Shown: positions 35,161-59,546 of the stretch, piece by piece
Layout of the letters: the number at the start of each line of letters is the position of its first letter
Numbering within the stretch: the first letter of the stretch is position 1
Sequence record: PQ850593.1
Source: Escherichia phage AidaStucki_Bas93
Strand: one strand, 5' to 3'
Length of the DNA stretch: 64,000 bases
Made by a program: the position numbers and the translations under genes
Notes under the pieces: model-generated
Database searches by the model: none
Seen by the model: only the letters and a program-made list of their open reading frames with translations
Told to the model about the DNA's origin: nothing

Positions 35161-35656
35161 TTAGTGTGTATGCATCCAATTTAACCCAATCTGACAATCA
35201 GAAGCCAGAGGACATTCCATGTTCAAGTACTCACCAGCCTTCTTAACACAAAGCTCGGTGTACTCTTTGAGTTTCTGTACATCATTACGGTTCACTGAGA
35301 ACTGGCCCTCATCGTGCATATCAATTACCTTAGCACAACGAACTCCATCTTTCTCAATCCACTTGTTAAGGAACATCATAGCATATTTCATAACAACAGC
35401 ACCAGCACATTGCAGGAGTGTGTTAAGGGCTTTATGAACCATAACCTTACCAGTGGCATCCCGTCTCATTGTAATCTTACGACCATCAACGCCAATCAAA
35501 TACCCTTGAGCAGCTTTCTCTGTCATACGATCAATGAGGATTGCAATACATGGGTTCTCTGCCAAGAAGCGTGCTCGCATCACTGAACCTTCGTCAGCTC
35601 CACCACCTACGATTGAACCAAGTTTAGCATCACCAGCACCATAGTTAAACGCATCT
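35161..35656 (-). CDS. DNA polymerase (family A, T7-like), exon 2: motif B tail ...AFNYGAGDAKLG... and motif C VIDMHDEGQF
   Basis: Reads in frame upstream of the tool-called GTG start: GAGDAKLGSIVGGGADEGS matches the T7 region YGAGDEKIGQIVGAG. Confidence 0.7.
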
Positions 35657-36362
35657 CATATATTCGACAAGAGCCGCAACACTCTCGCCCGTTCTCTTAT
35701 GAACTGCTACATGTCGCCATGTAGGATAGACTATATCATCACCCTCTATCGAGGGGTTGGGCGCTTCCACCGGCATTAGCTTCCGGCGTACTCCTTTCGG
35801 ATAGTCGTTGCACCTTCAAGTATTCTATAGCTGTTTCTAATCGGCTAACATCATCTTTCAATAGCCCTAAAGCTCTGTTGCAGTTGTGACACAACAGACC
35901 GCGTATTACTCCGGATTCATGGCAATGATCAACCACAAGTTTAATTCTGTGATGTGTTGCCATTACAAACCCTTCGCCCTTACAGATAGCACACTTCCCA
36001 TCCTGATCAGCGTACATCTTTTCGTAATCGCTGGCTGTGATTCCATAAATTCGTTTGAAGTAGGAATTTCTCCAGCCCCTATCTTTGCATTCATCAGAGC
36101 AATAATGTTCAGATGGTGCATTTGGTTGAAAATCTTTTGAGCAATTACGACAAGGTTTTGGATTGAACCGACCTTGAGGGTATTTACTTGCCTCAGCAGT
36201 CTGTTCTTCTTTAGTTTTAGTTACAGTTGTATATTCCATAAGCACCTCCATGTTGAGTTGCTATAGAATACTTGCTTGGCTCAGGATTGTCTACTAGAGA
36301 GTTTCCCTGAGTTCACCCAATTTAATCGACGAGATTACTCTCGAAGTATCCATTTACGTCAG
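35657..36362 (-). mobile_element. Putative group I intron (706 nt) interrupting the DNA polymerase gene and carrying an HNH homing endonuclease ORF
   Basis: Exon 1 stops right after ...RDNAKTFI, in the middle of motif B. A P1-like pairing is possible: the exon end UUUAU pairs with intron GUAAA 6 nt into the intron, with a U-G at the splice site. The intron ends in G, and joining restores KTFI-DAFNYGAGD in frame. Confidence 0.55.
35739..36251 (-). CDS. HNH homing endonuclease encoded inside the polymerase intron
   Basis: Cys-rich N-terminus plus DHCHESGVIRGLLCHNCNRALG HNH motif. Own RBS GGAGGTG. Confidence 0.75.
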   Translation of the reverse strand: MEVLMEYTTVTKTKEEQTAEASKYPQGRFNPKPCRNCSKDFQPNAPSEHYCSDECKDRGWRNSYFKRIYGITASDYEKMYADQDGKCAICKGEGFVMATHHRIKLVVDHCHESGVIRGLLCHNCNRALGLLKDDVSRLETAIEYLKVQRLSERSTPEANAGGSAQPLDRG

Positions 36363-37711
36363 ATAAACGTTTTAGCGTTGTCACGAGTAGGAAGACCAGC
36401 AAGTTTCTGGTTGTGGGAGTGGATATCACCTTCAAGAAGGATATCACGATACATAATAGCAGAAGCTAAACCACGTTCTGCCAGAGCTTTCTTAGCTGGA
36501 TTATTCTCTTCGATTGCTTCAGCAAGCATATCCCTACACTCTTTAATGAGGTAGTGAGCGAGCATACGAAGTTCAAGTCCAGAACCATCATACCCTAAGA
36601 ATACTTCTTTACCAGCGGGTATGTAATATTTGTAAGCACCTACAGGCTTATCTTTCTTCCCCGGCTTACCTTTCTCGTAAATTACGTTAGTACCTTTTCG
36701 TATATAACAACCATCAGGAACAACGTTAGTAATAACGAAAGGACGAGAGTGATCACTGTCTGAATTATAGTCAGACTCAAACAAACTGCGACACTCATGA
36801 CCAAACAAACCACGAGAGGGAATATTAACCACGATACGATGTTTGAATCGAAAAGTTGGCGTAGCGCAGCTGTTAGCTTCTGCCGAAAGTTTACCATCTT
36901 CGCGTTCCTTTGCTATGAGTCCACTGATAAGACCTAGCCTGTGAGCCGCTACAACGCGCCTCTTAAGCAAACTTCCAACACTCCCTAGCTCGCCCCCTAA
37001 CCCTTCTTCAAGAGTCTCCTCGAGGTTTGTAGGAGCTGTAGGCCACTTGTTTGAGGTAGCTAGTGCTATCTTAATCTCATCAAACGTGATAGGTCTACGT
37101 CGGTTAGGGTTTAAACCTAAACCAAACACATAAGCCTTCATATAGTTCTTAGTCTTAAACCTAAAATGCTTCTCTAAGAACCTCCTAATATCTGCGTCAA
37201 CCATCTCGGCTGTCTGCTTCTGTTTAGCATTACCTCGCATCCAAGCTGAATACCACGCTTGGTATGTTCCATACTTTCGTATATCTTTCTTGATTTCAAA
37301 AGTATTCCAAGGTTTCTTTGATACGTTAAACTCTGGAGGAAGAAAACCCTCATCCATAAGGGCTTCTTTAACTCGTGCATCTTTCGATGGGTCAAAGTCC
37401 ACGTATTCAACACAGGTGAATGCTCCACCAATGTCTTCTCTCTTAAGGCCAACTCTATCACAATAGGCTTGAGGCCACTTCTGTAAAGCTCCAGACTTCT
37501 TAAATGGCTTCATATAAGTAGAGCCATCTAATCTCATCTTAGGTAAGAGAGGGATCAGTTCTTTGTCGATATTAACAATAATCTCTTTAAGGAGGTGAAC
37601 ATACCACCGAGCATTTCTTCGGTTGAAACTCACTCCGTGCTTCGCTTGCTTAGAGATTATATCAGCGACAGTCATCTCTGTCAAAAATGGGAGAGCGTCC
37701 GGGTTGCTCAC
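36363..37711 (-). CDS. DNA polymerase (family A), exon 1: polymerase palm and fingers with motif A and the start of motif B. It has no 3'-5' exonuclease domain.
   Basis: Motif A GYDGSGLELRMLAHY. Motif B start LPTRDNAKTFI, followed immediately by a stop. Confidence 0.8.
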
Positions 37712-59467: not shown

Positions 59468-59546
59468 CGAGGATGACAGGGTTCGAACCTGCATACTCCA
59501 ATTACTTCTTTAACGACCGCTTAGAAGGCGGGGAAGATACATCCTC
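59468..59546 (-). ncRNA. tRNA-like element with a perfect 7-bp acceptor stem, a canonical T-arm, a UCU anticodon-like hairpin, no D-arm and a long variable region
   Basis: T-arm GCAGG-TTCGAAC-CCTGT. Acceptor stem GAGGATG/CATCCTC plus discriminator G. Hairpin CCGC-CUUCUAA-GCGG. Embedded in a 15+5 bp inverted repeat. Confidence 0.35.

What the first reader, a model, noticed from the sequence alone, without database searches (positions are those of the whole stretch)
35161..37711. Family-A DNA polymerase gene split inside motif B by a roughly 706-nt group-I-like intron carrying an HNH endonuclease
Exon 1 (36363-37711) carries motif A (DGSGLELRMLAHY) and ends ...LPTRDNAKTFI, immediately followed by a stop. 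Exon 2 (35161-35656) reads ...AFNYGAGDAKLGSIVGGGADEGS...VIDMHDEGQF, which is the rest of motif B plus motif C. In between sits a free-standing HNH ORF with its own RBS.

A P1 helix can be drawn: exon 3' end UUUAU pairs with intron GUAAA (minus-strand bases complementary to 36353-36357), with a U-G at the splice site. The intron ends in G (complement of 35657). Joining the exons gives KTFI-DAFNYGAGD in frame and a 614-aa polymerase.

Intron-plus-HNH insertions in polymerase motif B are known in some T7-like and SPO1-like phages. This would be the same kind of element here.
Basis: partly seen in the sequence, partly recalled or inferred. Interest (0 to 1): 0.65.

Follow-up and report, generated by a model that had tools for sequence, protein, structure and literature searches.

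The report
Mobile self-splicing intron in phage polymerase

Summary
The feature is real. A 706-nt insertion (window 36360..35655, minus strand) splits a family-A DNA polymerase gene inside motif B. It is a subgroup-IA2-type group I intron. A 166-aa Endonuclease-VII/HNH homing endonuclease ORF (36239..35739) sits in its P6a loop.

- **Absence in relatives:** close relatives lack exactly these 706 nt and read KTFIYAFNYGAGD.
- **Structure:** the P3-P9 core, including the P3/P7 pseudoknot, shows strong covariation across 13 related phage introns.
- **Mobility:** the element is 99.6-100% identical in metagenomic phages whose flanking exons are only about 80-86% identical. This is a signature of recent homing.

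- Exon 1 ends at U36361, not 36363, and exon 2 starts at 35654, not 35656.
- P1 is UAUCU/GGAUA, not UUUAU/GUAAA.
- The joined protein reads KTFI-Y-AFNYG (Tyr451 = T7 Tyr526), not I-D.

The window is 99.6% identical to Escherichia phage ManiMatter_Bas94. In that GenBank record the polymerase is already a two-part join around an 'endonuclease VII' gene. Homologous introns are annotated in MQM1 (same site) and in Berlin and Vi06 (5 nt upstream). Splicing itself is inferred, not shown.

Low novelty and low interest. There is a modest side-story: three intron insertion points lie within 17 nt of motif B.

The parts
36361..37711 (-). Exon 1 of the family-A DNA polymerase gene (GTG start at 37711). 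It holds codons 1-450 plus the first base (U) of the Tyr451 codon, and contains motif A and the first half of motif B (RDNAKTFI).
   Evidence: ORF list and sequence. The start matches the GenBank CDS of ManiMatter_Bas94. The end is fixed by comparison with intron-less Bas92, PE006 and 1-6af.
35655..36360 (-). Group I intron, 706 nt, IA2-type. Intron position n = window 36361-n. The first bases G-A complete an in-frame UGA with the last exon base, and the last base is omega-G at 35655.
   Evidence: Exactly these 706 nt are missing in Bas92. Rfam RF00028 scores 43.9 bits, E 3e-9. Covariation is shown and the MFE fold. Sequence identity to other phages breaks exactly at these borders.
36347..36351 (-). 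Internal guide sequence GGAUA (intron 10-14). It pairs with exon bases UAUCU (36365..36361) to form P1, with U36361-G36351 as the wobble pair at the 5' splice site.
Evidence: Read from the sequence.
36330..36343 (-). P2 hairpin CGAGA-GUAA-UCUCG (intron 18-31).
   Evidence: MFE fold. There is a compensatory A-U to G-C change in L025-L028 (CGGGAGUAAUCCCG) and MQM1 has GGGGAGUAAUCCCC.
36280..36320 (-). P3 5' strand (36320..36314), P4-P5-P4' (36311..36280) and the conserved J4/5 and J5/4 adenosines.
   Evidence: Covariation counts: P3 has 6 of 7 pairs with double changes, P4 has 4 of 7, P5 has 2 of 3. The MFE fold agrees.
36260..36274 (-). P6a 5' strand (CAAGUAUUCUAUAGC). With 35817..35831 it forms a perfect 15-bp stem that closes the 428-nt loop holding most of the endonuclease ORF.
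   Evidence: It is the only inverted repeat of 10 nt or more in 35600-36420. The equivalent stems in Vi06, MQM1, RCIP0053 and HP1 have different sequences.
35739..36239 (-). Homing endonuclease gene: 166 aa plus stop, Endonuclease VII/HNH family, with CAIC...DHCH...CHNCN motifs and GGAGG 6 nt upstream of the ATG. Its last ~30 codons overlap P6a', P6', P7, P7.1, P7.2, P3' and P8.
   Evidence: Pfam PF02945 at 83 bits, E 1.4e-23. PDB matches to Hpy99I and T4 endonuclease VII. It is annotated 'endonuclease VII' in ManiMatter_Bas94. It is 58.6% identical to the Berlin intron ORF.
35817..35831 (-). P6a 3' strand (GCUAUAGAAUACUUG).
35729..35806 (-). Catalytic core, 3' half. P7 5' strand GACUAU (35806..35801); P7.1 (35800..35793); the GUA linker; P7.2 (35788..35768); P3 3' strand (35763..35757); P8 (35755..35742); J8/7; P7 3' strand AUAGUC (35734..35729).
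   Evidence: Covariation: P7.2 has 6 of 6 pairs with double changes and P8 has 4 of 5. P7 is nearly invariant, with one double change. This stretch is 82-93% identical to the cores of the T4 nrdB, Twort-like and SPbeta introns.
35669..35724 (-). P9 hairpin (35724..35707, GCGA loop) and the peripheral P9.x hairpin (35686..35669).
   Evidence: P9 has 5 of 7 pairs with double changes. The MFE fold agrees.
35161..35654 (-). Exon 2. It starts with AU, which completes the Tyr451 codon, then AFNYGAGD (rest of motif B) and motif C (VIDMHDEGQF), ending with stop TAA at 35163..35161. There is no in-frame start codon before GTG 35583.
   Evidence: Pfam DNA_pol_A E 1.6e-16. T7 DNA polymerase alignment.

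Best explanation
This is a mobile group I (IA2-type) self-splicing intron in the essential family-A DNA polymerase gene of a phiEco32-like (Kuravirus) coliphage.

**Splicing (inferred from family knowledge)**
- The gene is transcribed as one pre-mRNA.
- The intron RNA folds into the P1-P9 ribozyme.
- An external guanosine attacks after U36361, which sits in the U-G wobble of P1 (UAUCU/GGAUA).
- The freed exon 1 then attacks after omega-G 35655, and the exons are ligated.
- This restores the Tyr451 codon (U|AU) and gives a 614-aa polymerase that differs from the uninterrupted allele of phage Bas92 by one residue (R205S), far from the junction.
- On unspliced RNA, ribosomes stop at a UGA made of the last exon base plus the first two intron bases. 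This keeps them out of the ribozyme.

**Mobility**
- The intron carries an Endonuclease-VII/HNH homing endonuclease gene in the P6a loop, with its own Shine-Dalgarno sequence.
- The enzyme presumably cuts or nicks intron-less polymerase alleles near ACGTTTATCT/AYGC during mixed infection. Recombinational repair then copies the intron in (homing).

**Shown here:** the precise insertion, the conserved and covarying ribozyme structure, the endonuclease family, and horizontal spread of the element.

**Inferred:** splicing chemistry, endonuclease activity and endonuclease target.
For: 1. **Precise indel.** Bas92 (99.3% identical) lacks exactly 706 nt and reads KTFIYAFNYGAGD. So do PE006 and 1-6af at this site.
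2. **Correct product.** Joining 36361 to 35654 gives a protein that differs from the Bas92 polymerase at only one residue, R205S. It aligns through motif B with T7 DNA polymerase (E 3e-33).
3. **Rfam.** The group I model matches full length (positions 1-253) at 43.9 bits, E 3e-9, with the ORF as a 434-nt insertion in P6.
4. **Covariation.** On 13 related phage intron cores, my P3-P9 structure including the pseudoknot has 92.7% of cells paired, against 32-44% when partners are slid. Compensatory changes occur in 31 of 45 pairs, and 0 of 500 shuffles reach these values.
5. **Independent fold.** The MFE fold of the ORF-deleted intron recovers P2, P3, P4, P5, P6a, P7.1, P7.2, P8 and P9, with z = -5.65. 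The 15-bp P6a stem is the only long inverted repeat in the region.
6. **IA2 hallmarks.** P7.1 and P7.2 are joined by an almost invariant GUA. This criterion is quoted in PMC3428280.
7. **Endonuclease.** The ORF is Pfam Endonuclease_7 at 83 bits, with PDB matches to T4 endonuclease VII and Hpy99I.
8. **Mobility.** The same 706-nt element is 99.6-100% identical in metagenomic contigs whose exon 1 is ~80% and exon 2 ~83-86% identical. Identity falls right at the 3' splice site and within ~50-100 nt of the 5' site. Only 1 of 110 related phage records carries it.
9. **Public annotation.** ManiMatter_Bas94, a cultured phage, has the same intron, and its polymerase CDS is annotated as a join.
10. **Known homologues.** Homologous introns sit at the same site in MQM1 and 5 nt upstream in Berlin, Vi06 and RCIP0053. 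The Berlin intron ORF is 58.6% identical to this one.
Against: - No RNA data: splicing has not been observed for this intron or, as far as I could find, for any Kuravirus intron.
- The Rfam score is below the curated gathering threshold (43.9 vs 50 bits).
- P5 is only 3 bp and P7.1 only 2-3 bp in this copy.
- P10 is weak (a possible GCGU/ACGU pairing, read from the sequence only).
- The covariation alignment was built from sequences selected by similarity to this intron, and the structure was derived from it. This inflates the paired-cell figure somewhat. The slid-partner control and the double-change counts argue against an artefact.
- The endonuclease's cleavage site and activity are untested.
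Confidence: 0.93

Rival explanations
1. The polymerase is genuinely split. A free-standing HNH endonuclease gene has inserted between two halves, which are translated separately and assemble as a two-subunit enzyme, with no RNA splicing.
For: An in-frame stop follows exon 1 and the endonuclease has its own RBS. Gene callers in metagenomes and several GenBank records simply list separate ORFs. Endonuclease-split genes do exist in phages (general knowledge).
Against: - Exon 2 has no in-frame start codon or RBS ahead of the conserved AFNYGAGD...; the first is GTG 35583, which would drop the rest of motif B.
- The break falls inside a codon (U|AU) in the middle of the O-helix motif.
- About 280 nt of non-coding flank around the ORF form a conserved, covarying group I core. 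A simple endonuclease insertion would not need this.
Confidence: 0.03
2. It is a group I intron spliced exactly: 5' splice site after 36363, 3' after 35657, P1 UUUAU/GUAAA, junction KTFI-D-AFNYG.
For: The frame and length (706 nt, 614 aa) are preserved. A U precedes the proposed 5' site and a G ends the proposed intron.
Against: - It replaces Tyr451 by Asp. All intron-less relatives have TAY = Tyr here, and it is T7 Tyr526.
- The spliced DNA would differ from Bas92 at additional bases.
- GUAAA is absent from diverged copies of the same intron, while GGAUA is kept.
Confidence: 0.02
3. It is a decaying or splicing-defective intron remnant that inactivates the polymerase, with the phage relying on another polymerase.
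For: The Rfam score is below the gathering threshold. The related intron ORF in RCIP0053 appears frameshifted, so decay does occur in this family.
Against: - The ORF is intact and all core helices are intact.
- The element is near-identical in many independent contigs and in a cultured, plaque-forming phage.
- I did not see a second polymerase gene in the neighbourhood I examined, though I did not annotate the whole window.
Confidence: 0.02

Closest known systems
Escherichia phage ManiMatter_Bas94 (PQ850617) DNA polymerase I / endonuclease VII locus
   Same: It is 99.6% identical over the 2.7-kb region and the 706-nt intron. The CDS has the same start and stop. GenBank annotates the polymerase as a two-part join with the 'endonuclease VII' gene inside.
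   Different: There are 11 substitutions in 2.7 kb, 3 of them in the intron. I could not read the exact join coordinates used in that record, and the spliced protein is not in the protein collection.
First intron of the Aeromonas phage vB_AsaP_MQM1 DNA polymerase (OQ628262; PMC10410586)
   Same: The insertion point is identical (after ...ACGTTTATCT, inside the Tyr codon). P1 guide GGAUA, P2 and core are the same, and the omega-G is followed by AUGCG. The paper calls these 'putative introns'.
   Different: It is 289 nt with no endonuclease ORF (only a short P6 extension). The host phage is different (Aeromonas, CHOED-like). MQM1 has a second intron further downstream.
DNA-polymerase (gene 5) introns of T7-like phages Berlin, Yepe2, YpP-G, Vi06 and Klebsiella phages (RCIP0053, IME184, Kpp-61)
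   Same: They are group I introns of the same IA2 type, in the same motif B of a family-A polymerase, with the ORF in the P6a loop. In Berlin and the Klebsiella phages that ORF is an Endonuclease VII-type endonuclease: the Berlin ORF is 58.6% identical over 145 aa, E 2e-59. The Berlin CDS is annotated as a join.
   Different: - They are inserted 5 nt upstream (after ACGTT, in the Phe codon), so P1 and the guide sequence differ (GACGUU/GGCGUC).
- They have no P2.
- P3-P6 sequences differ in the Berlin and Klebsiella copies.
- The Vi06 ORF is much more distant (35% identity over 57 aa, E 2e-5).
PhiI/W31 (I-TslI) and Pf-WMP3 (I-PfoP3I) DNA polymerase introns, and SPO1/SP82/Bastille (I-HmuI family)
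   Same: They are self-splicing IA2 introns in phage family-A polymerase genes. An HNH endonuclease ORF starts in P6a and runs into the core, and P7.1 and P7.2 are joined by GUA (PMC3428280).
   Different: The insertion sites differ: E. coli Pol I positions 881, 674 and 676 according to PMC3428280, not motif B. The endonucleases belong to other HNH subfamilies. Those introns have experimental proof of splicing and nicking; this one has none.
T4 td/nrdB/sunY introns
   Same: The J8/7-P7-P9 core is 84-86% identical over ~50 nt to the T4 nrdB intron. They share the general architecture, with the ORF looped out of a peripheral helix and a stop codon early in the intron (general knowledge).
   Different: They have different host genes and different endonuclease families (GIY-YIG, and the HNH enzyme I-TevIII).

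Membership tests
Group I intron (Rfam RF00028) | Match to the curated covariance model at or above the gathering score | tested here: inconclusive
   43.9 bits against a gathering score of 50. The match is full length (1-253), with E 3e-9 on the region and 6.7e-8 on the whole window. It is not listed at the gathering threshold. The large ORF insertion and the un-modelled P7 pseudoknot cost score.
Group I intron | P1: the last exon base is U, paired to G of an internal guide sequence | tested here: met
   Exon UAUCU (36365..36361) pairs with intron GGAUA (36351..36347), with a terminal U-G. The pairing is conserved in MQM1 and in the diverged L025-L028 copies.
Group I intron | The intron ends in G (omega-G) | tested here: met
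   G35655 immediately precedes exon 2 (AUGCG). The same holds in MQM1, Berlin, Vi06, RCIP0053 and LAMP.
Group I intron | Conserved core P3-P4-P5-P6-P7-P8-P9 with the P3/P7 pseudoknot, supported by covariation | tested here: met
   92.7% of 578 cells are paired, against 32-44% for slid partners. Double changes occur in 31 of 45 pairs. 0 of 500 shuffles reach the observed paired fraction, double-change counts or covariation score. The MFE fold agrees, z = -5.65.
Group I intron | Precise absence from otherwise near-identical alleles, with exon ligation restoring the reading frame | tested here: met
   Bas92 lacks exactly 706 nt. The spliced product matches the Bas92 polymerase apart from R205S.
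Group I intron | Guanosine-dependent self-splicing | not testable with these tools
   This needs in-vitro transcription with GTP, or RT-PCR from infected cells.
Subgroup IA2 | Extra helices P7.1 and P7.2 between P7 and P3', linked by G-U-A | tested here: met
   P7.1 is 35800..35793 and P7.2 is 35788..35768, with GUA between them nearly invariant in 13 sequences. The criterion is as stated in PMC3428280.
Endonuclease VII / HNH (beta-beta-alpha-Me) homing endonuclease | Match to Pfam PF02945 above the curated cut-off, with the Cys4 zinc site and the D-H-x-H...N catalytic motif | tested here: met
   83 bits against a cut-off of 23.6. CAIC, DHCH and CHNCN are visible in the sequence. PDB matches are T4 endonuclease VII at E 3e-5 and Hpy99I at E 6e-7.
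Homing endonuclease (function) | Cleaves the intron-less allele near the insertion site and drives intron inheritance | not testable with these tools
   Only indirect support exists. The element is 99.6-100% identical in backgrounds whose exons are ~80-86% identical, with identity breaking at the intron borders.
Family-A DNA polymerase | Motifs A, B and C; match to Pfam PF00476 and to solved family-A polymerases | tested here: met
   PF00476 scores E 4.7e-23 on the uninterrupted Bas92 protein and E 1.6e-16 on exon 2. T7 DNA polymerase scores E 3e-33 and Klenow E 4e-6. Exon 1 alone does not reach the Pfam threshold.
Intein | In-frame insertion translated together with the host protein | tested here: not met
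   A UGA stop spans the 5' junction, and the insertion has stops in the polymerase frame.

The most novel reading that the evidence does not exclude
The intron and endonuclease here share ancestry with the Berlin-type T7-like polymerase intron but sit 5 nt further 3' in the gene, with a re-tailored guide sequence. The endonucleases are 58.6% identical, both ORFs lie in P6a, and both introns are IA2-type.

Phage LAMP carries a third, ORF-less intron 12 nt further on, and the PhiI/W31-type intron sits in motif C. Motif B of phage family-A polymerases would therefore be a hotspot where one endonuclease lineage has driven introns into at least two neighbouring positions. That would be a natural example of intron 'site shifting' around a shared endonuclease target. 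The element also appears to be sweeping now through divergent Kuraviruses: it is identical in backgrounds that are ~80% identical.
Probability: 0.45. Interest if true: 0.35.

Novelty: already known. Interest (0 to 1): 0.18.

Why it matters
It matters mainly for annotation.
- Automatic gene callers split this essential polymerase into two or three 'hypothetical' ORFs. The correct product needs the join 37711..36361 + 35654..35161.
- The corrected junction restores Tyr451, the residue equivalent to T7 Tyr526. From general knowledge of family-A polymerases, that residue governs sugar discrimination.

Biologically it adds one more well-supported case of a mobile IA2 intron in a conserved polymerase motif. 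The comparative data are a neat illustration of ongoing homing and of clustering of intron sites in the most conserved DNA:
- an identical intron in exon backgrounds that are ~80% identical;
- three insertion points within 17 nt;
- relatives with two introns in one gene.

It does not open a new question.

Tried and rejected
Rejected on comparison with uninterrupted alleles and on conservation of the guide sequence.
- **Rfam's own P1 drawing.** In its alignment AACGUUUAU pairs with AUGGAUACU, with two non-standard pairs. I did not use it, because it does not place the splice site at a U-G pair.
- **Rfam at the gathering threshold.** The intron is not listed; only the E-value mode shows it.
- **Exact 28-mer across the 5' junction in IMG/VR.** No hit.
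- **A 39-mer of P4-P5 in IMG/VR.** It hit three contigs, but these share only ~50-90 nt of core and are different introns. Not followed further.
- **Exact look-up of the spliced ManiMatter protein** (both junction versions), to learn which join GenBank used. Neither is in the collection, so the record's join coordinates remain unread.
- **Literature searches** for Bas94, ManiMatter, phiEco32+intron and Kuravirus+intron found no description of this intron.
- **A single covariance model of the whole mini-intron** was not built, because about 280 positions exceeds the calibration limit. I used nhmmer halves plus a MAFFT alignment instead. In that alignment P8 is out of register for several distant sequences, which lowers its paired fraction to 63%.
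- **Intein and split-gene readings** were considered and rejected (see rival explanations and the membership test).
Full report
**What is in the sequence**

On the minus strand, a 450-codon ORF (GTG 37711 to TGA 36361..36359) encodes the N-terminal three quarters of a family-A DNA polymerase. It ends ...GLPTRDNAKTFI*. Downstream, another frame reads *DAFNYGAGDAKLGSIVGGGADEGS...VIDMHDEGQF... and ends at 35161.

Between the two lies a 166-aa ORF (ATG 36239, GGAGG 6 nt upstream, TGA 35741..35739).

**Where the window comes from, and what relatives show**

The 2.7-kb region is 99.6% identical to Escherichia phage ManiMatter_Bas94. It is 95-99% identical, over the exons, to about a hundred phiEco32-like (Kuravirus) phages.
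- In ManiMatter_Bas94 the polymerase CDS has the same start and stop. It is already annotated as a two-part join, with an 'endonuclease VII' CDS in the gap.
- JacquesWildberger_Bas92 is 99.3% identical but exactly 706 nt shorter. It has one uninterrupted 614-aa polymerase and reads AAAACGTTTATCTACGCGTTTAAC = KTFIYAFN at the site.
- PE006 and 1-6af read the same peptide.

**Exact junction**

Only one placement of a 706-nt deletion reproduces ...TATCT-AYGCG...
- Exon 1 ends at U36361.
- The intron is 36360..35655.
- Exon 2 starts at A35654.

The spliced protein then differs from the Bas92 protein only at R205S, far from the junction. Tyr451 aligns with Tyr526 of T7 DNA polymerase in LPTRDNAKTFIYGFLYGAGD (E 3e-33).

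With the corrected site:
- P1 is exon UAUCU paired with intron GGAUA (36351..36347), with a U-G wobble at the splice site.
- GGAUA is retained in the same-site intron of Aeromonas phage MQM1 and in a ~10%-diverged copy of this intron in metagenomes (GAAUAACGGAUAC).
- The last exon base plus the first two intron bases form an in-frame UGA.

**Is it a group I ribozyme?**

Rfam RF00028 matches full length (model 1-253) at 43.9 bits. The E-value is 3e-9 on the region and 6.7e-8 on the whole window. The ORF appears as a 434-nt insertion in P6. This is below the curated gathering score of 50, so I tested the structure independently.

I derived a structure from the sequence (intron position n = window 36361-n):

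| Helix | Intron positions |
|---|---|
| P2 | 18-31 |
| P3 | 41-47 / 598-604 |
| P4 | 50-56 / 75-81 |
| P5 | 61-63 / 69-71 |
| P6 | 82-83 / 547-548 |
| P6a | 87-101 / 530-544 |
| P7 | 555-560 / 627-632 |
| P7.1 | 561-568 |
| P7.2 | 573-593 |
| P8 | 606-619 |
| P9 | 637-654 |
| P9.x (further hairpin) | 675-692 |

I collected related intron cores from 12 other phage loci. These were MQM1, Vi06, Berlin, RCIP0053, HP1, two introns of qdvp001, AbpL, Draal01, UAB_1, AD45-P1 and the PE006 motif-C intron. They lie in polymerase, terminase, RNA polymerase and thymidylate synthase genes.

On the MAFFT alignment:
- 92.7% of cells form standard pairs, against 32-44% when the 3' partners are slid by 1-3 columns.
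- 31 of 45 pairs show compensatory double changes.
- No shuffle of 500 reaches the observed paired fraction, double-change counts or covariation score.
- P3, P4, P7.2 and P9 are especially clear. P7 is nearly invariant.
- P8 scores lower only because MAFFT put several distant sequences out of register.

The MFE fold of the ORF-deleted intron recovers all nested helices, with z = -5.65. The 15-bp perfect stem 36274..36260 / 35831..35817 is the only long inverted repeat in the region. P7.1 and P7.2 joined by GUA is the IA2 signature cited in PMC3428280. The J8/7-P7-P9 segment is 84-93% identical to classical phage introns, including T4 nrdB.

**The ORF**

- It matches Pfam Endonuclease_7 (PF02945) at 83 bits.
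- In the PDB it matches T4 endonuclease VII and Hpy99I.
- Its sequence shows CAIC / DHCH / CHNCN.
- It lies in the P6a loop, and its last ~30 codons run through P6a', P7, P7.1, P7.2, P3' and P8. It stops in J8/7, immediately after the P8 hairpin. This arrangement is described for other phage polymerase introns.
- It is 58.6% identical (E 2e-59) to the ORF of the Berlin gene-5 intron.

**Mobility**

The exact endonuclease sequence occurs on 16 metagenomic contigs, and its 90% cluster has 31 members. In every contig examined it sits between a 449-450-aa exon-1 ORF and the exon-2 ORF.

In L020-L022 the 706-nt intron is 99.6-100% identical to the window. Exon 1 is ~80% identical and exon 2 ~83-86%.
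- Identity drops in the first 50 nt after the 3' splice site.
- It drops over ~50-100 nt upstream of the 5' site.

This is what recent horizontal transfer by homing, with short co-conversion tracts, predicts. It also marks the intron borders independently. Only one of 110 related GenBank phage records has this intron. Between the window and Bas92, the only exon difference near the site is TAT versus TAC in the Tyr451 codon.

**Comparison with known elements**

- *Same site:* the MQM1 first intron (289 nt, ORF-less) has the same P1 and P2. It is published only as a 'putative intron'.
- *Five nt upstream (after ACGTT):* Berlin, Vi06 and RCIP0053 and their relatives. The Berlin polymerase is annotated as a join.
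- *Twelve nt downstream (after ...TTTAACT, in the next Tyr codon):* phage LAMP has a 304-nt ORF-less intron of the same family, also annotated as a join.
- *Motif C:* many Kuraviruses (PE006, 1-6af, and metagenomic L019, L020, L024-L028) carry another intron of 607 nt with an HNH_3 ORF, between His and Asp of VIDMH|DEGQF. This corresponds to the PhiI/W31 position 881 quoted in PMC3428280. The window lacks that one.
- *SPO1-type introns:* per the same paper they are at position 674, not in motif B.

**Verdict**

This is a real, well-supported, mobile IA2 group I intron with an Endonuclease VII-type homing endonuclease, of a kind known since the 1990s-2000s. This particular instance is already annotated in a public record, so novelty and interest are low.

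The useful corrections are the 2-nt shift of both splice sites, the P1 pairing, and the endonuclease subfamily.

Splicing and endonuclease activity are inferred, not demonstrated. I found no paper describing introns in Kuravirus polymerases.

Noticed in passing
L003 3282-3888 (PE006); also L004, L019, L020, L024-L028. The equivalent uninterrupted site in the window is about 35320 (GATATGCAC|GATGAG).: Many Kuravirus relatives carry a second, different group I intron of 607 nt with a 131-aa HNH_3 endonuclease. It lies in polymerase motif C between His and Asp of VIDMH|DEGQF. Some metagenomic phages have both introns, giving a polymerase in three exons. GenBank records list the pieces as separate ORFs. 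The window lacks this intron.
   Followed up: partly
L015 2953-3256 (Escherichia phage LAMP): LAMP has a 304-nt ORF-less group I intron 12 nt downstream of the window's site (after ...GCCTTTAACT, in the Tyr codon of NYGAGD). Exon substitutions cluster next to it. With the T7-like site 5 nt upstream, this makes three insertion points within 17 nt of motif B.
   Followed up: partly
L005 2056-2735 (Berlin), L007 2821-3495 (RCIP0053): The Berlin-type T7-like polymerase intron carries an endonuclease 58.6% identical to the window's but is inserted 5 nt upstream. This hints at a site shift of one intron/endonuclease lineage. In RCIP0053 the endonuclease matches in two different frames, so it is either a frameshifted pseudogene or a sequencing error.
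   Followed up: partly
window 59468-59546 (minus strand): There is a marginal tRNA match in Rfam (29.7 bits against a gathering score of 29, E 0.04), but ARAGORN finds no tRNA anywhere in the window.
   Followed up: no
L016 11276-11321, L017 10114-10164, L018 934-984 (IMG/VR contigs): Three viral contigs share an exact 39-mer of the P4-P5 core with this intron but are otherwise unrelated beyond ~50-90 nt. They are presumably other members of the same intron family in other genes.
   Followed up: no
L010 314-519 and 899-1143 (Vibrio phage qdvp001): The large terminase gene of qdvp001 is annotated as three separate 'terminase large subunit' CDSs. The two gaps each contain a group I core related to this intron, so the gene probably has two unannotated introns.
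   Followed up: no
L009 about 2440-2770 (Pseudoalteromonas phage HP1): An ORF-less intron core very similar to the window's lies between two 'hypothetical protein' CDSs (gp50/gp51) with no intron annotated. The host gene was not identified.
   Followed up: no
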